Source: Chiloscyllium plagiosum
Lineage: Eukaryota
Assembly (NCBI RefSeq): GCF_004010195.1
Contig: NC_057719.1
Coordinates: 36,993,417-37,057,416, forward strand
Direction: 5' to 3'
DNA: 64,000 nt
The notes beneath the pieces were generated by a model. It was not told the DNA's origin. It did not search any database and saw only the letters and a program-made list of their open reading frames with translations. A program made the translations under genes and the position numbers. Shown in pieces: positions 2,688 through 35,064 of the stretch. Numbering within the stretch: position 1 is the first letter of the stretch; each line of letters starts with the position of its first letter.

Positions 2688-2748
2688 CTGTTGAATTCTG
2701 CAAACCAGGACCTCGTGAACTGGGTGAAGGTGAAGAGCTTGCATCCTC
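2688..2748 (-). CDS. EVL: EVH2 linker exon: EDASSSPSPSSRGPGLQNST(x)
   Basis: ttttaaccag|GAG GAT GCA...TCA ACA G|gtgaag; 61 nt, phase 0 to 1. Resembles EVL EDPSTSPSPGTRAASQPPNSS. Confidence 0.88.
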
Positions 2749-4480: not shown

Positions 4481-5652
4481 TGAATAAAAGGGAAACTGTA
4501 CATGGGATGACCAATGACTGCAGATGTGTCCTGGCAGCTATGGTGAATGAATATCATCATATTGGTACCTTATGGAATAGTTGTGCCACTGCCAGAATTG
4601 CTCATCTCGATCCACTGGCTATGTTTCAAACTAAAATGAAAAGTCCAAATGGCTTTTGGAAATCCCAGCTGTTGCAGACAAAGGGTTTTAACAGATCTCT
4701 TAATTGTCCTTAGTTGTCAACCCACTGCTAAACAGAAGGTGATGCATTCCAGTGCTCACCCAGCCTCTCTAAAATGGTTGTGGCTCATGAACTTGGCACT
4801 GAATCAGCCAATGGTGCCAGTTTGTGGGCCTGGTCATCTCTGGTCCTGGCCTCACGATCAACTAAACATCCTGCCTTCAATGTTTGTCAATTCCATTCTG
4901 CATTATGAACGCTAGAAATTGATCAAAATTGGCCAATCACATCCCTTGCATTATCTCAGCTGTTCTTTTAGTAGAGATGTAACAATTGCTGTTCTACTTT
5001 TCTTCCGTATAATGCACCTTGCAAGAGTTTGCAAAAATTATGGTTTGTGGCTTTGTTCCCTCTTCCCAACCACATTCAACAGTCTGGCCTGCAATTTAAT
5101 GCAATTTCATTTTGAATAAGGGTCTTCACCAACGATTCATTCATCATCTTCTAAAGGCAGACTTCCAATTTCCACAATAAAATAATTGCTCTATTATCCT
5201 GTTACTGACACATCAAAATGGCTCTCTTTATCTCGAAAAAGTCTTTCTCTTCTTTACGTCATTTCCTTAAGTGTGTGCTTTAAATTCATCTTCATTCATA
5301 TTAATTGTCATCCTTAATTCCTAATTTTCCTAAACTAATCTCCTTCTTTCCTATACAAGATATTTATTCTATTTTTCATAGTTTGTTTCAAAGCAATTTT
5401 ACTTTAATCTTCCCAATTATCCTTGGAAACATAATGTTCATACATCACCTTAACTCTTAGTCTTTACCTGTACCTATACAAGCTGTGTTTAAATATCTGC
5501 TATTACTGGTGCCATTTTTTCCAACCAGTTAATTCCATCAGGTTCATCTATCATTACATGATGGACTATACAATATTTCTCTGTAATATTTGTTCTTAAA
5601 TTGTCTAGTTCATCACACATTTAGATCATGCTATCACTGGCTTAGCACATAC

Positions 5653-5786
5653 CGTTTTGCGAGCAGTTTATTCATTTCATCCATTAATCCTCCTCCTCCC
5701 CCAGCTGCTGCTGCCCCACAGCTGTTCCGATTGGTTTCATTCTTTGACACTCCCCCAGGACTGGAGCTTCCTGAACCTTCTTCAGG
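5653..5786 (-). CDS. EVL: EVH2 exon with the start of the FAB motif: [44 protein letters not shown](R)
   Basis: ttgtttgcag|CCT GAA...GCA AAA CG|gtatgt; 134 nt, phase 0 to 2. GGGLM(D/E)EMNKLLAKR is the EVL form of FAB (VASP: MNAMLARR; Mena: MSALLARR, as recalled). Confidence 0.93.
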
Positions 5787-5954
5787 CTGCAAACAAGTTT
5801 AGAGATGGAAGATTATGATTTGGAACAATCTCTGTTTGCTAAACATTTTAATATAAACTGTTCAATTTACCAAATCATATTCTTTCAAGGTACTAAGTAA
5901 TAACATCTGAAATTTTAACTTGTAATACTTCTTATGTTAATATAGATTATCATA

Positions 5955-8900
5955 ACATAGAAACATGAGTAGGCCATTCGGCTTTTGAGCCTACTTCATT
6001 ATTTACCTGCATCGGAGATAACTATCTACCTCAACATCATTTCTCCCCAGCTATATCCATATCACTGGATGTCATTAGTCTTAAAAGTCTGTTGACTTTT
6101 GATTTGAACATGCTCAATAATTAAGTTAAATCGAAGAGTGAAGAAATTTCTCCTCATCTCAGACCTAAACTCTTTGTCATGAAAGTATACCCTCTGGTTT
6201 CAAACTCAACTACCTACCTATATCCACCCTATCATGCCATTTAACAATCTTCAAGTTTCAATGAGATTATCGATCATTCTTCAAAATTCTAGAGAATAAA
6301 GACTCAGTCAACTTGATTTTGTTTAAGACAATCATGCCATCCTGTAGATTAATCTGATGAATTTCCATGCTCTATAACAGTATTTCTTTTATTAGGTAAG
6401 AAAACAGAAACTGTACACTGTACTCTAGGTCATAGAGTTAGACAGCATGGAAGCAGACCCTTCAGCCCACTCATCCTAAACTGAACTATTCCCATCTGCC
6501 TGCATTTGGCCCATGTCACTCTAAACCTTCCCATCCATGTACCTGTCCAACTGTCTTTTAAATGTTCTAATTGTACTCACCTCATTCACTTCCTCTGGCA
6601 GCTCCTTCTATACACACACCACCCTCTGTGGGAAAAAGTTGCCCCTCAGGTCTCTTTTAAATCTTTCCTCTCATAAACCTAAGCCTTCCAGTATTAGATT
6701 CCTCTACCCTGGGGAAAAGATCTTGGTTATTCACCTTACTTATGCCTCTCATGATTTTACAAGCATCTATAAGGTCACCCCTCAACCTCCTATGGTCCAG
6801 GGAAAAAGGTTCTAGCCAATCGAGCCTCTCCTTATTACTCAAACCTTTCAATATTGGTAAAATTCTTGTAAATCGTTTTGCATCCTTTCTAGTTTAATAA
6901 CATCTTTCCTATAGCAGGGCAACCAGAATTGTAAGCAGTACTCCAAATGTGGTCATATCGTTGTCTTAGACAGCTGTAACATGCCATCCCAACTCCTGCA
7001 CTCAATGCTCTGACCGATGAAGGCAAGCTGCCTAAATGCCTTCTTCACCACCCTGTCTACCTATGATACCACTTTCAAGGAACTATGCACCTGACCCCAA
7101 GATCTCTCTGTTCAGTAACACTCCCCAGAGTCCTACAATTAACTGTGTTGATCCTGCCCTGGTTTACCTTATTAAATGCAACGCCTCACATCTATCAAAA
7201 CTGAACTCAATTCGCCATTCCTTGGCCCACTAGCCCAGTTGATCAAGATCTCATTGTATTCTTAGATAACCTTCTTCACTGTCTACTCCACGACCAATTT
7301 TGGTCTCATCCTCAAACTAGCTAACCATGCCTCCTGTATTCACATGCAAAATGTTTATGTAAATAATGAGCAGAAGTGGACCCAGTACCAATCTTTGCCA
7401 CACACCACTGGTCGCAGGCCTCCAGTCTGAACAACAATCCTCTACTACCACTCTCTGTCTCCTACCGTCAAGACAATTTTGTATCCAGTTGGCTTTCCCT
7501 GGATCCCATGTGATGTAGCCTTACTAACCAATCTACCATGTGGAATCTGGTGTGTGCTTTCACAAAGACTTTAAACAACTGTGGTAAGACATCTATACTT
7601 TTGCACTCAGCTCTCTTTGCAATGAGGACCATCATAACATTTGTCTTCCGAATTGTTTGTTGCTCCTGCATTTTAGCTTTGAGTCACGCATGAATGGGGG
7701 CATCCAAGTCTCTTTAAACACGAGTACGTCCAAAGCTCTCAAATTTAAGAAATTTTCTGCCTTTTTGCTTTTTCCACCAATGTGAATAATTTGGCAATTA
7801 CATTATATTTTGTCAGCCATGTTCTAGCCCATTCACATATTCTATCCAAGTCTTGTTGGAGTATCATTGCATCCTCCATAGGACTTACATTTCCACCCAA
7901 TTAATGTCATCAGCAAAGTTGGAAATCTTCCAATTGGTCACCATATTCAAATTATTTATAAAGATTGTGAACAGCTCTGGACTTAGCACTGATCATTGTG
8001 GTTACTCCACTTGAACAGCCTACCATTCTAAGAATGAATGATTTGTTCCTACACTGTTTTCTATATATTAACCAGCTCTTAATTCATTTTAACATATTTT
8101 TCCCAGTCCCATGCACTCCTGATTTTTATTTAAAAGTCTCTTTGCGGAACTTATCAAAAGCTTCCTGAAAATCTAAATATACCAAATCCTTCAGCTGTTT
8201 TATCAATGCTACAATATCCTTAAAACTCTAATAACTTAATTTTTAAAAATCCATATTGATTCTGCCCAGTTTTAACCATTCTTTTCAAAATGTCCAGTTA
8301 TCACATCCTTTATGATAGGTTCTACCATTTTCACATTACTGACATCAAACTAACAGACCTGTAGTTTTCCATTCTCCCTCTTCTTTCTTTCTGAAATTGG
8401 GGAGTTACATTTACCACTTTCCAGTTCATAAGAACCTTTCCGTAATCTATACATCTTTGAAAGATAACCACCAATGCATCCATTATTTCTCAAGCCACCT
8501 CCTTCAGAACTCGAGGATGACACTTATCTAGACCAGAAGATTTGTCAAATATCAATTTACTCAACTTTTCAAATGGTACCTCTTTATAACACAAATTTAG
8601 TTTAGTTTCTCAATTTCACAGGTCCCTATTTTGCCTGGAGAATTCTGTATGTTTTTCCATGAGCACAAACGCAAAGTAACTGTTTATGTCCTTCACCCTG
8701 TTGCTGTCCATTAGAAATTCTCCTGCCTCAGCTGAAAGGACACAGAAGTGGTTCTAGCTCATTTGTTCCTTTTTTCCTCCCCAAAGAAATTATTACAGCC
8801 CAACTTTACGCTGCTCGCTAGTTTCTATTTATAGTCTCGTTTCTTTTTTAATGAATTTCTTGGTCCTTTTTTGCTGGGTTCTAAATTGTCTCCCAATCCT

Positions 8901-9560
8901 CAGACTTACCACTTCTCTGGCATCTTTTAAATCACTTACTTTGTTGCAATCCAACCTTTAACCTCTTTTCAATACCATGTTTGATTCACCTTTCCCTTTG
9001 GATATTTGTGACTTAGACAACTGTATGCCTGCTGTAGACCATGTAATATTTCTTAAAAACAAACCTTCGTCTATCTTTTACGGTATTTTCCCAAACCATG
9101 GTATTCAACTGTTCCCTCATATTTTCCTTGTTTCCTTTCTTCAAGTTTAAGGCCCTGGTTTTAGAATGAACTATATCATATCAAATATAATGCAATATTC
9201 TACCATACTCTGGTCACTACTTCCCAAAGGCCCTATACAACAAGGTTATTAATTTGCCTTTTCATTGCAATAACACTAAATACAAAATAGTCTAGCTTGG
9301 CCTGACTCCTCGATGTACTGCTCCAGAAACCCATCTTTTACACAATCCAGGAATTCACTCTGCACAGAATTAGTGCTGTTTTGGTCAACCCAGACTACGT
9401 GTACAATGCAGTTTGCCATAATTACTGCATTGCCCTTATTACACACATCTCTATTTTCCTGATTTAGACCATGCCCAACATTACCACAACATTTTGGTAG
9501 CCTATAAACAATGCCTACCAATGTTTACTGCTTGTGTTGTTCCTTAGCTCCACCCAAACT
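5955..9560 (-). mobile_element. Long decayed CR1 LINE (endonuclease to RT to 3' end) with a second CR1 nested at about 6430-7545
   Basis: ORF 9276..9521 (VGIVYRLP...FLDCVKDGFLEQY) is endonuclease-like. ORF 6657..6851 has LRGDLIDACKIMRG. Two separate 3' tails. Confidence 0.8.
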
Positions 9561-9901
9561 TATTCTAATCTTAATACTATCGGTTAACATCCTTGCAACA
9601 CCAAAATTGGTATCTCCTTAAATCAAGCAGTACAATTAAATTGTTCTGCTGAGTTCAGGTTCCCATCCTGTGTGAATTATGCAATCCCTCCCCTTTCCTC
9701 TGCTGACAGAAATGGACCAGTTGGAAATGTGGTGAGAACTCCAACATCTGGATTCTATCCAACATTTTCAAATGTTCACAGAGTCTTCCAGACTTCATGC
9801 AAAGCCAGTCCAAAGATTATTCTTTAACAGAAGAAAACTAATTAACTGCAAATTCATCACCTCACAATTATTTTAAGCAAACATGACCAGCTTAGATAAT
9901 T

Positions 9902-10165
9902 GGGGTCAGTTAGCTCAGTTGGCTGGATGGCTGGTTTCCAATACAGAGTGATGTCAAAGCACGGGTTTAATTCGTATGCTGGCTGAGGTTACAAACATTC
10001 AAAAGGAAAGGTGAATTAAATGTGGGTTACCATGAGGGTCTCTCCTTCTCAATCCCTCTTCTCATCTCAGGCATCGTGACCATCAGGTTAAACCACCATC
10101 ACTTAATCTCTCCGTAATGAGAGAGTAGCACTATGGTCTGGTAAGACTATGATGACTTTATCTTT
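9902..10165 (+). mobile_element. tRNA-headed SINE-like element
   Basis: A-box-like ttagctcagttgg and B-box-like gggtttaattc, followed by a SINE-like body. Confidence 0.5.
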
Positions 10166-11009
10166 ATTACAAGTGGAACATTACCAGTCTTTTTTATTGC
10201 AGCGTGATGTCACAACATTGTAATGTTTTGAGCAGAAAACTGTCATTCCAATCTCAGAACTCACTCTAATAACATCTTTCTTATAATATAGAAACCAAAA
10301 TTGAGCACAAAATGCCAGGTGTACCTTTAACAAGACTTTAATAACAGTTTCTCAGGCATACATTCAATATTTTATGTATTTATTTGCCATCTATAAACAC
10401 TACATGGGCAAGAGATTCTGTCAATTGATCCAAGTATTAATCCAGAATGCATTTAAGTATTTTTTAAACTAAGTCCTTACTGTGAAGCTAATGTGTTTAG
10501 ATGATCTAATGGCAGGAGATGGGCTAGCTTTGTGATTGATACAACTTATTGTCTATATAAATAGCCACAGGAAAACAGAATGTGGTTTATTAACCTGGAG
10601 TATATATTGTAAAAGAATTGCATTCTCTCAATTATCACATTGTATTCCAATCTGAAATAATTTACTGTGTATTATTTGCACTGCAATTCTCAATCCGAGG
10701 AAAATGTCAAATGGTGTCATAGCTGAAGTGATAAACAAGTGTAAGTTAGAGTCACTGCATACCATGTGAAAAACATACTCTCATATTAGCAGTTGAATAA
10801 TGCGCACCAATTTATAATATCAACATGCAATAAAGGTACTGAAATGGTCCCGAGGATTTTAAATGCTGATTTGGGTACAGCACTCCACAAACTACACCAC
10901 AAAAGTTATTTCCAAAGAGCATGAAGTGGCTTCAAATCCCCAATTTATCAAAAGGTGTCTCAATTGTTTGTAAACACAGAAGTATTTAAAAGAAAAGTAA
11001 GACTCCTAC

Positions 11010-11248
11010 CCGACTGGTTTTCCTCAGTTTGGCTCCAGCAAGTGCTGCTGCCAGACCTGAAGCTGAAGGTCCATCATCACCTCTAGCCCCTGGGCTTCCA
11101 CAAGCTGGCAATGGAGGGGGAGGAGGTGGCCCACCTCCAGATGCTGGTGGAGGCCCTGGTGGCGGTGGAGGTGGTGGGGGACCACCAGCAGGAGGTGGCG
11201 GGGGACACACACTTTGGGTTGGGGGTCCTCCAGGAGGCATGGAGGGAA
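11010..11248 (-). CDS. EVL: Proline-rich (profilin/SH3-binding) region plus G-actin-binding GAB motif: ...[13 protein letters not shown]...[16 protein letters not shown]
   Basis: ttttatttcag|TT CCC TCC ATG...AGT CGG|gtagga; 239 nt, phase 1 to 0. GLAAAxAGAKLRK is the Ena/VASP GAB signature. Confidence 0.95.
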
Positions 11249-12101
11249 CTGAAATAAAAGTAGAAATAAATTTAAGTACTTCAAGAAGATCATCAATTAG
11301 AAAGAAAGGTCAAAATGCTATCATGTACTGTTGAAAACAGGTTAACGTTGAAGTAAGTAAAGATGCATAAAATGTTAATGTTTCATTGCACTTTGAAATT
11401 GAAGAGAAGGCAAATTTAAAATGTATGTTATCTGGTTAGTCTTGCAGCACAAAATTGAATACCAAAAGATTAAAGGTCAAAATAAAGTGTAATAGCATTT
11501 AATTACAATATTTAATATAATTGGTGTAACTACTTTCAATTGACTAAGGGGATTACTTGAAGTACCTTTCTCTCTAAAATAAGTCATTTTAAAGGACTAG
11601 CACAATAGATTGATATAAGCCATATGTTTGCTTTATGCTTTTACCCTAAAATAATTTGATTTCTTTTCGCCTTTATCTCAAATCATAATCTGAATTAAGC
11701 AGAATACTGTAGCATTCACAGGTTAACCAGTTACAGTGGGCGAGTCTGTCAATTTTGGTAATTACAAAACAATTGTGCTTGGGTGCATTTCCATGGGATA
11801 TTACAGTAACATGTCATTAGAATCCAGATTTCAGATGCTTTATTAGGAAAATAATAGGATGAAAGCAAGTGATATGTCTACAGAATGGCATTGCAAAACT
11901 AAAAAAGATACTTTAAAATAAAACTCATCATATCTTCTCCATTAAACTAGTCCTTTACAATTTTGTATGCATCAACAGTCATTTAAGAATGAACTTTTTC
12001 TATATTCAAACCAAGCAGAGAAAGACAAAAAAAAAGCCAAGAGATGCTATCAACAAAAATCCACACACAGGTTGCATGACTTCCAGCACGACATCACTTA
12101 C

Positions 12102-12983
12102 CCGCCTGGGTAATGGCAGTTGAAGTAACTGATGTCATGGGAGATGGGGTCTTCTTGGACATTGCTGCTTCAGAGCAAGCAGCATAAAATGGAGGAGATG
12201 TAACAAAGTGTGAGGTGGTTTTGTATACCTGCTGTGCAGGGAGTGCAGATGAAGATGACAACTGTGGGTGGATTTGGCAACTGGAAGGACTACTTAAGAA
12301 TGACACTTGAGATACAGGAGTAGATGCTAAACTAAATGTGAAAGAGCCCTCTGTACTTTTTACTGGGGACTTGGAGGTCAGGTGAGTTGCTGTTTGCAAA
12401 CGATCTTCATCCTGACCATTCTGGTTTGTGGCTGATGGAGCTACCTGAACCACAGAGTCTATAGGTCTTTTAATCTTGCTATCACACACACGAATAACGG
12501 GAAGAGCAATTGGAATTATAGGCTGTGGTCCAACAGCCCTGTGGGGAGGAGAAGTGATCATCACGGGGGGAGATGGAGGTAGAGGAGAAGATGTAGTAGA
12601 TGAATCAGAGACAGATTTAGGGAGCAACGGTGGTGGGTGGGTGGGAGAAGGAGGAGGGGATAATGGGTTCAGTCTAACACGCTGACACCTGCTTCCTAGG
12701 TTTGGCTGCACAGGAGAAAATGCAGAACTTATGGAAGCAGATAATTGTGGCATTGAGGTTGGAAGAGGTGGAGATTCAGTATGTGCATTTCTCAATGTTA
12801 GCTGGCAAGGATCGTCAGCAAATACTTCTTTAGGAGAGGTTGTGGAATCAAAGGATGTAGCTCTGGCATAAGATGGAGGAGGGGCAGTACCCGAAGGTAC
12901 AATCACACTGTAGTTACTGTACTCAGGTGGAGGAGATTGGCTATGAGAAGGGGAAGGAGAAACTTTGATCTGAAGGGTAGAAA
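12102..12983 (-). CDS. EVL: Large Ser/Pro-rich, probably alternative, exon (294 codons) of the Ena/VASP-like gene
   Basis: Lies inside the 320-aa ORF 12094..13056. Long polypyrimidine tract ending tgctgcttag|TT TCT ACC; donor CAG GCG G|gtaagt. 882 nt, phase 1-1 symmetric, no stops. Confidence 0.8.
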
Positions 12984-13289
12984 CTAAGCAGCAGTGGAAA
13001 AAGAAGAAAAGAAACAGTGAGTAGAAAATACTATAAATCAAAAAGGCAAAGAGCAATTAAAATTTTAGAATATTCTATCATAATTGGAAAAACATACTGA
13101 CAGAGAGATGGGAATAATCTTTTATTTCATCTTGATACACATCAGACCTTTTGAGGTCAGTATCAAAATATCTGCCCTATGAACGTATGGCCACTTTTTA
13201 TTGTGGTAAATGCTGACATCAGAACCTTTGACAGAAATGATCATATTATCCATTTTCCCAATGAGAAGATGATTGCAATGATCTGAATG

Positions 13290-14860
13290 ACCATAAAACC
13301 AGAACATGTAAGAGTAGGAACAGGCCATTCAGCCAATCAAGTCTGCTCTGTCATTCAATGAGATCATGGTATATCTGATAATCCTCAACTCCACTTTCCT
13401 CCATTTCCCCATAACTCTTGATTCCCTTATTGGTTAAAAATCTGTCTGTCTCAGCCTTGAATATACTTAACGACCTAGCCTCAAAAGCCTTCTGTGGTAG
13501 AGATTTCCATAGATGCACTATATTCCTAGAGAAGGAATTCCTTCTCATCTTTGTTTTAAGTGAGTGATCCCTTACTGTGAGATTATGCTCTCTGGTCCTC
13601 GAACTTCCCACATGGGGAAACAACCATTCCACACCTACCCTGATGGAGGTCAAATTTGGGAGGTCAAATGCAAAAGGAAAGTATGCAGTAAATGGCAAGA
13701 TCCTTAGGAGCGTTAATATACAGAGGGATCATGAGGTGCAAATCCATTGCTACCTGAAAGTGACAACATATGTGGATAAGGTGGTAAAGAAGGCATATGA
13801 CATGCTTGCCTTCATTAGTTGGGGCATTGAGTATAAAATTTGGCAATGAAAACACAAATTGCTGAAAAATCTCAGCAGGTCTGGCAGCATCAGTGAAGAG
13901 AAATCAGAGTTAACATTTCGGGTCCAGTGACCCTATCTCAGAACCCGTTAACATTTTGTTTTCGTTTCTGATTTACAGCATCTGCAGTTCTTTCAGTTTT
14001 TATAAAAGTTGGCAAATCTTGCTGCATCTGTGTAAGACTTCAGTTAAGTCACATGTGGAGTGTTGTGTGCAGTTCTGGTTTGGAAAGATGTGGAGGGCTT
14101 GGAGAGGGTGCAAAACAGATTTTACCAAGATGTTGCCTGGGTAAGAATGTATTAGCTTTAGAGAGAGGTTGGACAGCATTGGATTATTTTCACTGGAGTT
14201 TTGATGTCTGAAGGCAACCTGATGAAGTATATAAAATGATGAAGGTATGGATTGGGTGGGTATTCAGAATCTTTGTCCCAGGATGGAAATGTAAAATACT
14301 AGGAGGAATGGGCTTAAGGTGAAAGGGACAAAGTTTAAAGGAGATGTGCGAGGCAACTTTCTACATAGGAGTTGGTAGGTGCCTGGACCACACTGCCAGG
14401 GAAGAAGCAGGGAAGAGCAACATTTAAGAGGCATTTAGACAGGCACATGAGCAGACAGAGAATAGAAGGATATAGATCATGTACAGGAAGATGGGATTAA
14501 GTTAGAATAGCACCATGGTCCGTATGGTCCTGTGCTTTTTGTTCTATGTTCTAAACTCTCTAAGAATCTTAAATGTTTCAATAAGGATGCCTCTTAGTCT
14601 TCTAAAGTCCAACAAGTTTAATGCCATTATATTTGCCTTAGATAAGGGTATACAACTGTGGTCTGCCTTACTGCATTGTATAGTTTTAGCAAGACTTCCC
14701 TATTTTATTACTCTATTTCCTTGGAAATAAAGGTTAATGTTCCATTTGCTTTTCCTATTATCTACTGAACCCTTATGCTAGCTTTTAGTACACGGACCCC
14801 AAAACTCCATGTACTGCAGCTTTCCACAGTCTTTGTCCACTTAAATAACATTCAGCTTCT
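13290..14860. mobile_element. Nested CR1 fragments: minus-strand 3' end, interrupted by a plus-strand CR1 at about 13640-14550
   Basis: ORFs 13351..13698 (-) and 13577..13849 / 13956..14144 (+) carry CR1 RT C-terminal motifs. Confidence 0.8.
13847..14000. mobile_element. Penelope-terminus mini-insertion inside a CR1
   Basis: TSD tataaaa(t/g)ttggcaa (13832-13846, 14001-14015). Decayed hammerhead on the minus strand at 13911-13941. Confidence 0.65.
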
Positions 14861-16454: not shown

Positions 16455-18087
16455 GTTTCCCCGGCTCCCAATGCCTCATCTTCACCATGGACATCCAGTC
16501 CCTGCACACATTGTCTGCCATGATGAAGGTCTCCAAGTCTTCCGTTTCTTCCTCTCACACTGTCCCAACCAATATCCTTCCACCGACACCCTTATCCACC
16601 TGGCTGAACTGATCCTTATCCTTAACAACTTCTCCTTCCAATCCTCCCACTTCCTCCAAACCAAAAGGGTAGCCAAGGGCACCCACATGGGGTTCAGCTA
16701 TGCCTGCCTGTTTGTCGGATGTGTGGAACCGTCCATCTTCCGCAGTTATACCAGCACCACTACCCCATTGATGTTCCTCCGCTACATCAATGATTGTATC
16801 GGTGCCAACTCGTGCTCCCGCGAAGTTCATCAACTTTACCAATACCTTCCAACCTGATTTCAAATTCACCTTGTCCAGCTGAGAAACCTCTCTCCCCTTC
16901 CTGGACCTCTCCATTCACAATCTCTGGTGACCGACTAACCACAGGCATATACTACAAGCCCACCGACTCCCACAACTACCTAGACTACACCTCCTCCCAG
17001 CCTACCTCCTGTAAAAACTCAATCTCTTATTCCCAACTCCTCCACCGCATCAGTTCCCAAGATCACCAGTTCCACCTCAAAGTCCCAGATGGCCTCCTTC
17101 TTCCACAATTGCAACTTCCCTTCCCACACAGTTAATGATCAGGGCATCTCCTCCACTTCACGCACCACCACCCTTGAACTCCATCCCTCCCAATGCAACA
17201 AAGATAGAACCCTACGGCCCTCACCTTCCACCCCAACAACCTCTGCCTACAACCCATCATCCTCCATCACCTCCAAACGGACGCCACCACCAGAGATATA
17301 TTTCCCTCCCCACCCCTATCAGTGTTCCGAAAAGACTATTCCCTCCGCGAATCCCTCGTCAGGTCCACACCCCACACCAGCCCACACCCCACTCCTGGCA
17401 CAGTTCTCTGCCACGGCAGGACGTGCACAACCTGTGCCCACACCACTCCCCTCACCTCCATCCAAGGCCCCAAGGGATCCTTTCATATCCATCAGAAATT
17501 TACCTGTATCTCTACCAATGTCATCTACTGCATCCATTGCACCCGGTGTGGTCTCCTCTACATTGCGAATCATTTCAGAGAACATCTCTGGGACATCTGC
17601 ACCAACCAACCCCACCGCCCTGTGGCTGAACACTTCAACTCCCCCTCCCACTCCGTCAAGGACATGCAAGTCCTGGGCCTCCACCACCGCCAAACTGTTA
17701 CCACCGACGCCTGGAGGAAGAAAGCCTCATATTCCGCCTTGAGACCCTGTAAATGTGGATTTCAACAGCTTCCTCATTTCTCCTCCCCCCACATTATCCC
17801 AGTCCCAAGTCTCGAACTCGGCACCACCCTCTGGACCTGTCCATAACTTTCCTCTCTGACCTATCACCTTCGCCCTCACCTTCATTCACCTATCGCTTTC
17901 TCAGCTACCTTTCCACAAACCCAAACCCCCTCCCATTTATCTCTCAGCCCTGACCCACAAGCCTCATTCCTGATGAAGGGCTTATGCCCGATTGTCCTGC
18001 TCCTCGGATGCTGCCTGACCTGCTGTGCTTTTCCAGCACTACATTCTCGACTCTGATCTCCAGCATCTGCAGTCCTCACTTTCTCCC
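16455..18087 (+). mobile_element. Penelope-like retrotransposon, 5'-truncated and decayed (RT + GIY-YIG endonuclease + terminal repeat)
   Basis: RT motifs LILNNFSF..FLQTKRVAKGTHMG, FLRYIND and YYKPTDSHNYLDY. GIY-YIG-like NVIYCIHCTRCGLLYI...FREH...VAEHFN. Terminal repeat has ctgatgaagggcttatgccc. Confidence 0.9.
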
Positions 18088-23916: not shown

Positions 23917-23975
23917 CAGACATGGAAGCTCGTCGTTCTCTTTCCATTTGTTCATGGCGTTGTTCCATCAGTTGC
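23917..23975 (-). CDS. EVL: Ena/VASP-like exon: (R)QLMEQRHEQMERERRASMS, with the RRxS PKA site
   Basis: tttttttag|G CAA CTG...ATG TCT G|gtgagt; 59 nt, phase 2 to 1. ERRAS corresponds to EVL ERRTS and VASP ERRVS. No LERER repeat, which argues against ENAH. Confidence 0.9.
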
Positions 23976-35000: not shown

Positions 35001-35064
35001 CTTCTCTGTGCTTCCTGATCTTCAGGGGGTGGCCCATTCTGAACTTGACGCTGCACTGTCGGAC
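35001..35064 (-). CDS. EVL: Ena/VASP-like protein, exon after EVH1: (G)PTVQRQVQNGPPPEDQEAQR(R)
   Basis: Minus strand reads ctctag|GT CCG ACA...CAG AGA AG|gtaaaag; 64 nt, phase 1 to 2. Resembles mammalian EVL GPSSQRQVQNGPSPDEMDIQRR as recalled. Phase fits the next exon. Confidence 0.9.

What the first reader, a model, noticed from the sequence alone, without database searches (positions are those of the whole stretch)
12102..12983. EVL-type gene carries a large cassette exon resembling the neuronal Mena+ insert of ENAH
Seen: an 882-nt open, phase 1-1 exon between the RRxS exon and the polyproline exon, so it can be skipped without a frameshift. Recalled knowledge: mouse Mena has a neuronal ~245-aa insert at this position. 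Its blocks PLPEYS, APPPSYAK, LGSAFHPVLP and SPLPPSPPIMISSPPGKATGPRPVLPV match, in order, PPPEYS, APPPSYAR, ISSAFSPVQP and SPLPPSPPVMITSPPHRAVGPQPIIPI here. The flanking exons look like EVL ([12 protein letters not shown], no LERER), and canonical mammalian EVL lacks such an insert. Inference: the exon predates the ENAH/EVL duplication and was kept in this lineage.
Basis: partly seen in the sequence, partly recalled or inferred. Interest (0 to 1): 0.75.

Follow-up and report, generated by a model that had tools for sequence, protein, structure and literature searches.

The report
Mena-like optional exon in shark EVL
A bamboo shark's EVL actin-regulator gene holds a large, skippable exon whose first half is related to the brain-enriched extra exon of its sister gene Mena; it was likely inherited from their common ancestor and is predicted to add docking sites for WW-domain proteins, but public gene models already include it.

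Summary
Confirmed. Window 12983-12102 (minus strand) is an 882-nt, stop-free, phase 1-1 exon of EVL, 100% identical to residues 165-458 of RefSeq bamboo-shark EVL isoform X2. Tree and PDB search fix the gene as EVL (57, 58). ENAH in the same genome has an 816-nt phase 1-1 exon at the same position. The first ~160 codons are homologous (0 of 1000 shuffles reach the score; profile-profile 99.5%); the rest is not. EVL models from sharks to birds carry the exon; no mammalian EVL or true VASP hit appeared. Two tandem [P/L]PxY motifs are kept in 32 of 38 EVL and 28 of 29 ENAH proteins: likely a WW-domain docking module (untested). Public contigs show a dominant exon-skipping form; no inclusion junction was seen. 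No cyclostome evidence holds up. The exon is annotated and probably equals the Xenopus Xevl-H insert (recalled); the kinship with Mena exon 6L was not found in print, and a 2010 paper says Evl lacks it. This scan noted the same exon before in a ray (e1-7910880). Moderate interest.

The parts
12102..12983 (-). EVL cassette exon, 882 nt, phase 1-1, 294 codons, 19.5% Ser, 16.4% Pro; paralog of ENAH exon 6L
12508..12939 (-). Part homologous to ENAH exon 6L (profile-profile 99.5%, E 7.9e-23, 140 columns)
12919..12930 (-). PY motif 1, PPEY (ENAH: PPEY/LPEY)
12868..12879 (-). PY motif 2, PPSY (ENAH: PPSY/PPPY)
12703..12732 (-). Block ISSAFSPVQP (ENAH LGSAFHPVLP)
12508..12588 (-). Block SPLPPSPPVMITSPPHRAVGPQPIIPI, PxxP-rich (ENAH SPLPPSPPVVISSPPAKATGPRPVLPV)
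12184..12195 (-). PY motif 3, PPFY, in the EVL-specific 3' half
35001..35064 (-). EVL exon 4 (GPTVQRQVQNGPP...)
23917..23975 (-). EVL exon 5, short (59 nt, no LERER repeat), ends with the RRAS site that aligns with the family's PKA site
11010..11248 (-). Polyproline and G-actin-binding exon
5653..5786 (-). EVH2 exon with MNKLLAKR; splice 11010-5786 seen in contigs of 3 of 3 contig runs
3031..3091 (-). EVH2 exon RKAAQQTDK...
2689..2748 (-). EVH2-linker exon EDASSSPSP... (approximate ends from tblastn)

Best explanation
This is a frame-preserving, skippable exon of shark EVL whose first ~160 codons are homologous to ENAH (Mena) exon 6L, likely inherited from the gene that duplicated into ENAH and EVL, and its inclusion would insert a predicted-disordered 294-residue linker that is predicted to dock WW-domain proteins through tandem PPxY motifs. 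Shown: exon anatomy, EVL identity, paralogous exon at the same position and phase in ENAH, homology, motif conservation, a dominant transcript form without the exon. Inferred: when included, the linker sits between the RRxS kinase site and the polyproline/EVH2 actin-elongation part, leaves EVH1 and EVH2 intact, and adds three PPxY motifs (class I WW ligands, established knowledge; NEDD4-family ligases or YAP/WWOX-type adaptors are the usual partners, recalled) plus PxxP-rich blocks for SH3 domains. Because Ena/VASP proteins tetramerise, a minor long isoform would give mixed tetramers new partners in the tissues that include it (probably neural or cardiac, by analogy with Mena 6L). ENAH later kept the 3' end as constitutive exon 6 with an internal acceptor; EVL kept an all-or-none cassette, which eroded in birds and appears lost in mammals; VASP appears to lack it. 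Odds: paralogy with 6L 0.95, real regulated inclusion 0.85, WW docking as the main role 0.55, neural enrichment 0.55.
For: Exact match to RefSeq EVL X2 and nine other Chiloscyllium models. A search of the 3.56-Gb own genome with the exon gave 3 matches at E<=1: itself, the ENAH exon (E 2.3e-7) and one chance hit (E 0.87, no ORF of this kind). ENAH exon C3:135483451-135482636, 816 nt, phase 1-1, open, between the LERER exon and the polyproline exon. Shuffle and profile tests. EVL clade 100/99 (58); best PDB match EVL EVH1 1qc6 257.6 bits against 185.2 for ENAH (57). Both N-terminal [P/L]PxY motifs in 32 of 38 EVL and 28 of 29 ENAH proteins while the exon core is only 37% identical between the shark paralogs. 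Exon start VSTL directly after the RRxS exon in 34 of 38 EVL proteins by pattern, and a variant of it in three more. No secondary structure and pLDDT 32-46 over most of residues 165-458. Skip form in 3 of 3 contig runs.
Against: No inclusion junction in 4 runs laid; exon-body contigs have depth 2.5-3.6 against 11.2-115.7 for the polyproline exon, and run X2 also has an intronic contig of depth 4.2, so unspliced RNA could explain them; the raw-read run X20 had no read on any EVL exon. No binding was tested. Motif counts come from proteins found by likeness to the exon and picked by hand, about one a species, which favours motif carriers. The classical SH3 ligand PPTPPLR of Mena 6L (PMC10340426) is not kept in this EVL (ESPPLP). 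11 of 13 differences between two Chiloscyllium species fall in the exon, 41% of the protein, so most of it is weakly constrained. The fold model is poor even for EVH1 (block means 33-73), so low pLDDT is weak evidence of disorder. No TGCATG (RBFOX) site in 300 nt upstream or in the downstream intron. No outgroup carrying the exon was found.
Confidence: 0.75

Rival explanations
1. Same origin and splicing, but the exon works mainly as a spacer and SH3-ligand array that moves the polyproline region away from the kinase site; the tyrosines are kinase targets rather than WW ligands.
For: PMC10340426 section 3.3 reads the Mena + exon as extra SH3 sites and notes that PKA phosphorylation next to the proline-rich region switches off EVL binding to Abl and neuronal Src SH3 domains. 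The longest shared block is SPLPPSPP...GP.P. Exon length stays near 250-297 residues in 24 of 24 EVL proteins cut.
Against: That PxxP block decays in frogs and reptiles while the two PY motifs stay. The Pro-Pro/Leu-Pro before each Tyr is kept as well as the Tyr.
Confidence: 0.25
2. The exon is a rarely used relic; gene models include it on thin evidence and the long protein plays little role in the shark.
For: Only low-depth exon contigs and no junction in 4 runs; fast change between two congeneric sharks; erosion in birds and absence from mammalian hits show it can be lost.
Against: Open frame, boundaries and motifs kept across all jawed-vertebrate groups sampled except mammals; 77% and 55% identity of the core to horn shark and coelacanth. 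Tissues of the runs are unknown.
Confidence: 0.1
3. The exon moved between paralogs after duplication (gene conversion or exon copying from ENAH into EVL) rather than being inherited from the ancestor.
For: No pre-duplication outgroup with the exon was found; the only cyclostome-labelled hit nests inside teleost enah; shark VASP shows no match.
Against: Paralog identity of the core (37%) is no higher than that of the EVH2 region (41%); same intron position and phase; any transfer would have to predate the shark/bony-fish split.
Confidence: 0.07
4. The likeness is convergence of Ser/Pro-rich low-complexity sequence, or the gene is ENAH itself.
For: 36% Ser+Pro; two-sequence BLASTP with composition adjustment gives only E 2e-5 between the shark paralogs.
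Against: shuffles, reversal, masking, profile-profile; orthology; a separate ENAH gene on C3.
Confidence: 0.02

Closest known systems
ENAH (Mena) exon 6L, the '+' insert of the 140-kDa brain/heart Mena isoform
   Same: Position between the RRxS exon and the polyproline exon, phase 1-1, similar size, four collinear blocks, two tandem PY motifs.
   Different: In ENAH 6L is a 5' extension of exon 6 by an upstream acceptor (PMC2898656); the EVL exon has no counterpart of short exon 6 (3' halves unrelated), starts with an EVL-only VSTLQIKV block, lacks PPTPPLR, has its third PY motif at another place, and evolves faster.
RefSeq EVL long isoforms of non-mammalian vertebrates (e.g. XP_043553360.1)
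   Same: This very exon, 100% identical, same ends.
   Different: Automatic models with no statement on kinship or function.
Xenopus Xevl-H (Wanner et al. 2005, PMID 15661649)
   Same: Recalled: a long Xenopus Evl isoform with a large insert; frog EVL models here carry the exon.
   Different: The paper is not held; only its citation was seen and no Xenopus protein was among my hits, so identity with this exon is untested.
MenaDeltav6 and exon-6-skipping frog and zebrafish enah ESTs
   Same: The canonical short EVL is the structural equivalent of ENAH with the whole of exon 6 skipped (inference; ESTs reported in PMC2898656).
   Different: In EVL skipping is the default form.

Membership tests
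EVL (Ena/VASP-like) ortholog | EVH1 + EVH2 group with EVL, not ENAH or VASP | tested here: met
   Tree of 25 rows, EVL clade 100/99 (2 of 26 chosen proteins were skipped by the cutting pattern; unrooted, no mammalian EVL row); PDB best hit EVL EVH1
EVL (Ena/VASP-like) ortholog | Short exon 5 without LERER repeat | tested here: met
   59-nt exon against a 92-codon LERER exon in the genome's ENAH
EVL (Ena/VASP-like) ortholog | Neighbours EML upstream and DEGS downstream, tail to tail (human arrangement recalled) | tested here: met
   HELP domain C10:37.35 Mb, Lipid_DES C10:36.89 Mb; VASP has like neighbours, so this marks the paralogon more than the ortholog
ENAH exon 6L paralog | Lies between the RRxS exon and the polyproline exon in phase 1-1 | tested here: met
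ENAH exon 6L paralog | Sequence homology beyond composition | tested here: met
   first ~160 codons only
ENAH exon 6L paralog | Shares its 3' end with a constitutive short exon 6 (alternative acceptor) | tested here: not met
   3' halves unrelated; main EVL transcript skips the whole exon. So it is a paralog of the + part, not an exon 6L in the strict sense
ENAH exon 6L paralog | PPTPPLR SH3 ligand | tested here: not met
   ESPPLP here, ESPPLR in horn shark and chimaera
ENAH exon 6L paralog | Brain/heart-enriched inclusion | not testable with these tools
   runs are coded, tissue unknown, no junction seen
Alternatively spliced cassette exon | Skipping form exists | tested here: met
   Contigs of X1, X2, X6 cover 11249-11010/11097 and run on for 721, 729, 616 letters that lie neither on the exon nor on the intron before it; the upstream partner lay outside the stretch laid, so the 23917 end is inferred
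Alternatively spliced cassette exon | Inclusion junctions exist | tested here: inconclusive
   only exon-body contigs of depth 2.5-3.6; RefSeq models include it
Class I WW ligand (PPxY) | Conserved [P/L]PxY in unstructured sequence | tested here: met
Class I WW ligand (PPxY) | Binds a WW domain | not tested
   no binding test run
Xenopus Xevl-H insert | Same sequence as the cloned insert | not testable with these tools
   paper not held, no Xenopus hit

The most novel reading that the evidence does not exclude
The 'neuronal Mena+' insert is an ancestral vertebrate Ena/VASP module, older than the genome duplication that separated ENAH from EVL, and its conserved core is a tandem PY motif that couples actin elongators to WW-domain ubiquitin ligases or adaptors; mammals lost it from EVL, birds are losing its tyrosines, VASP lost it early. 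This would give the little-understood 140-kDa Mena a concrete two-tyrosine test.
Probability: 0.4. Interest if true: 0.6.

Novelty: new member of a known kind. Interest (0 to 1): 0.38.

Why it matters
The literature seen here treats exon 6/6L as ENAH-only and EVL as having two isoforms (PMC2898656, PMC10340426, PMC7857432). A paralogous exon in non-mammalian EVL shifts the origin of the neuronal Mena insert back before the ENAH/EVL split, shows which residues were kept over that distance (two PY motifs, SAFxPVxP, SPLPPSPP) and so points to the residues to mutate in mammalian Mena+. It also warns that fish, frog and reptile EVL can make a long isoform that mouse-based primers and antibodies would miss. 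It is not a new system, and the exon is already in gene models.

Tried and rejected
Pfam on the exon: only a sub-threshold DOR hit (E 0.06), rejected. ESM Atlas: no usable hit. No listed holder is on record as RNA. Third own-genome match L003 (E 0.87): no related ORF. Shark VASP (C41): no match to the joint profile in 30 kb (best E 2.2), but a 522-nt run of N lies in the relevant intron, so absence is likely, not proven. 'Lampetra planeri' protein P0213 (E 4.5e-9) groups with teleost enah at 99/99 on a very short branch: taken as a mislabelled or contaminant record, not cyclostome evidence. 'VASP' of Collichthys (P0215) reads as teleost evla by its sequence (not put in the tree). Springtail P0212 is a repeat-driven hit. 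Mammalian EVL: none among 36, 31 and 33 hits, but one search covered only proteins of 719 residues or more, searches scored only about 8000 candidates, and 11 of the 31 hits were not looked up (7 of them named earlier); no mammalian genome could be searched for a remnant. A 12-nt '++'-like microexon in the part of intron 3 inside the window: none passed a simple filter. RBFOX sites: none. The order of the ENAH/EVL/VASP duplications could not be settled without a root. Print searches that found no statement of the kinship; most subscription papers are not in the library.

Full report
Observation. The stretch 12983-12102 on the minus strand is 882 nt, starts after a pyrimidine tract and AG, and ends before GTAAGT. 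It reads without a stop. In-silico joins to exon 5 (donor 23917) and to the polyproline exon (acceptor 11248) are open in the same frame with or without it. It is 100% identical to residues 165-458 of RefSeq 'ena/VASP-like protein isoform X2' of Chiloscyllium plagiosum (P0001), and all 10 members of that cluster include it (shorter skipping models would fall in another cluster).

Gene identity. The genome holds three Ena/VASP genes: on C10 (this one), C3 and C41. The EVH1 domain of this gene is closest to solved EVL (257.6 bits against 185.2 for ENAH and 152.6 for VASP). In a tree of EVH1+EVH2 from 25 rows it lies in the EVL clade at 100/99 (sturgeon EVL and Polypterus ENAH were skipped by the cutting pattern; no root; no mammalian EVL row). 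An EML gene lies upstream and a DEGS gene downstream, tail to tail, the arrangement I recall for human EVL. All three paralogs have a DEGS neighbour, as expected of genome-duplication copies.

Kinship with Mena+. Searching the whole genome with the exon gave 3 matches at E<=1; the only significant other one (E 2.3e-7) is in the C3 gene. That gene is ENAH (99% to a shark ENAH protein), and the match is an open 816-nt phase 1-1 exon between the LERER exon and the polyproline exon. It finds ENAH long isoforms from sharks to mammals (220 hits, 120 listed). Alignment shows four collinear blocks. Scores against 5 of 5 ENAH inserts beat all 1000 shuffles of three kinds (z 9.5-12.6). Profile against profile (24 EVL, 21 ENAH) gives 99.5%, E 7.9e-23 over 140 columns; the reversed control gives 0.1%. 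Against this: only the 5' half is related (3' half z -1.1, 0.15%), masking P and S leaves z 4.3, and composition-adjusted BLASTP between the shark paralogs gives just E 2e-5. [quoted passage not shown] So the EVL exon is a paralog of the + part, not of short exon 6. Shark ENAH has an in-frame internal AG 126 nt from the end that could be the short-exon acceptor (untested).

Distribution. EVL-named proteins with the exon come from sharks, a ray, chimaera, coelacanth, gar, bowfin, sturgeons, paddlefish, teleosts, frogs, salamanders, turtles, squamates and three birds. No mammalian EVL was among 36, 31 and 33 hits, with the limits listed under Tried and rejected; mouse Evl is described with 14 exons and two isoforms (PMC7857432, passages). 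Shark VASP gave no match (a run of N leaves some doubt). The only cyclostome-labelled hit groups inside teleost enah (99/99) and is discounted. Origin before the ENAH/EVL duplication is therefore an inference from paralogy, position and phase, not from an outgroup. PMC2898656 places ENAH with EVL against VASP; my tree cannot test this.

Expression. Four runs were laid on 5600-13400. The three contig runs (RNA by the tool's guess) each hold the spliced joint 11010-5786. Their contigs over the polyproline exon (depth 11.2, 115.7, 20.8) run on upstream for 721, 729 and 616 letters that lie neither on the cassette nor on the intron, which fits exon skipping (493 coding letters plus a leader; the partner exon was outside the stretch). 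The cassette is covered only by contigs of depth 2.5-3.6; one ends exactly at the exon's 5' edge, without overhang. No inclusion junction is listed, X2 also has an intronic contig of depth 4.2, and the raw-read run had no read on any EVL exon. Skipping is shown; inclusion rests on RefSeq models and conservation; tissue pattern is unknown.

Mechanism. The exon is 19.5% Ser and 16.4% Pro, has no Pfam domain, and the model gives it no secondary structure (the model is poor even for EVH1). What survives between paralogs are short motifs. Both N-terminal [P/L]PxY motifs are present in 32 of 38 EVL and 28 of 29 ENAH proteins that I picked, about one a species, from the hits; the EVL misses are a stingray, two teleosts and all three birds (ostrich lost the first, the two neognaths both). 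A third motif lies at different places in the two paralogs. PPxY/LPxY is the class I WW-domain ligand (established knowledge). I commit to: inclusion adds a flexible WW-docking (and SH3-docking) arm between the kinase site and the actin-elongation module, in a minor, probably neural or cardiac isoform. Binding and tissue are untested. The rival is a spacer/SH3 role: PMC10340426 (passages and section 3.3) points to PPTPPLR in the Mena + exon, which this EVL does not keep. PMC3751641 (passages) reports the 140-kDa Mena in brain and heart. Most of the exon is weakly constrained: 11 of 13 differences between two Chiloscyllium species fall in it.

Novelty. The exon is in public gene models. I recall that Xenopus Xevl-H has a large insert (Wanner 2005); that paper is not held and I saw only its citation in PMC5655499 (passages), so identity with this exon, and whether it noted the Mena+ likeness, are open. 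Nine searches found no paper stating the kinship or the PY reading. Verdict: real, correctly read, a new member of a known kind; interest 0.38.

Noticed in passing
P0247, P0250, P0254, P0210 (bird EVL): Bird EVL exons keep the open frame but lose PY tyrosines stepwise (ostrich the first; night parrot and owlet-nightjar both), suggesting decay in progress; unnamed P0210 is closest to these (about 80% identity).
   Followed up: partly
L002:1146-1271 (ENAH exon, minus strand): In-frame internal AG 126 nt before the donor, after a 75% pyrimidine stretch: candidate acceptor for a short exon 6 in shark ENAH.
   Followed up: no
P0213: A protein filed under Lampetra planeri on a 64-kb contig groups with teleost enah (99/99): likely contaminant or mislabelled record.
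   Followed up: yes
P0215: A Collichthys protein named 'Vasodilator-stimulated phosphoprotein' reads as teleost evla.
   Followed up: partly
G000 C10:36.89-37.35 Mb, C41:6.86-7.15 Mb, C3:135.4-136.05 Mb: EVL and VASP both have a DEGS gene downstream tail to tail and an EML gene nearby; ENAH has DEGS upstream on the same strand. If EVL and VASP are the younger sister pair, the exon would predate the first vertebrate genome duplication and VASP lost it.
   Followed up: partly
P0193, P0216, P0217 (sea turtles): Models lack internal parts of the exon after SSRTQ, hinting at internal donors or sub-exons in the 3' half.
   Followed up: no
window 12957-12983: EVL-only N-terminal block VSTLQIKV is nearly invariant from sharks to reptiles and has no ENAH counterpart; unexplained.
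   Followed up: no
window 6400-7500, 9900-10150, 13310-13400: High-copy transcribed repeats (hundreds of contigs at 90-95% identity) in the EVL introns; 16984-17850 holds LINE-like stop-free stretches.
   Followed up: no
L007:4190-5340: A 1.1-kb perfect-looking 18-nt tandem repeat in the VASP intron between the EVH1 exons gives open frames in all three plus-strand frames.
   Followed up: no
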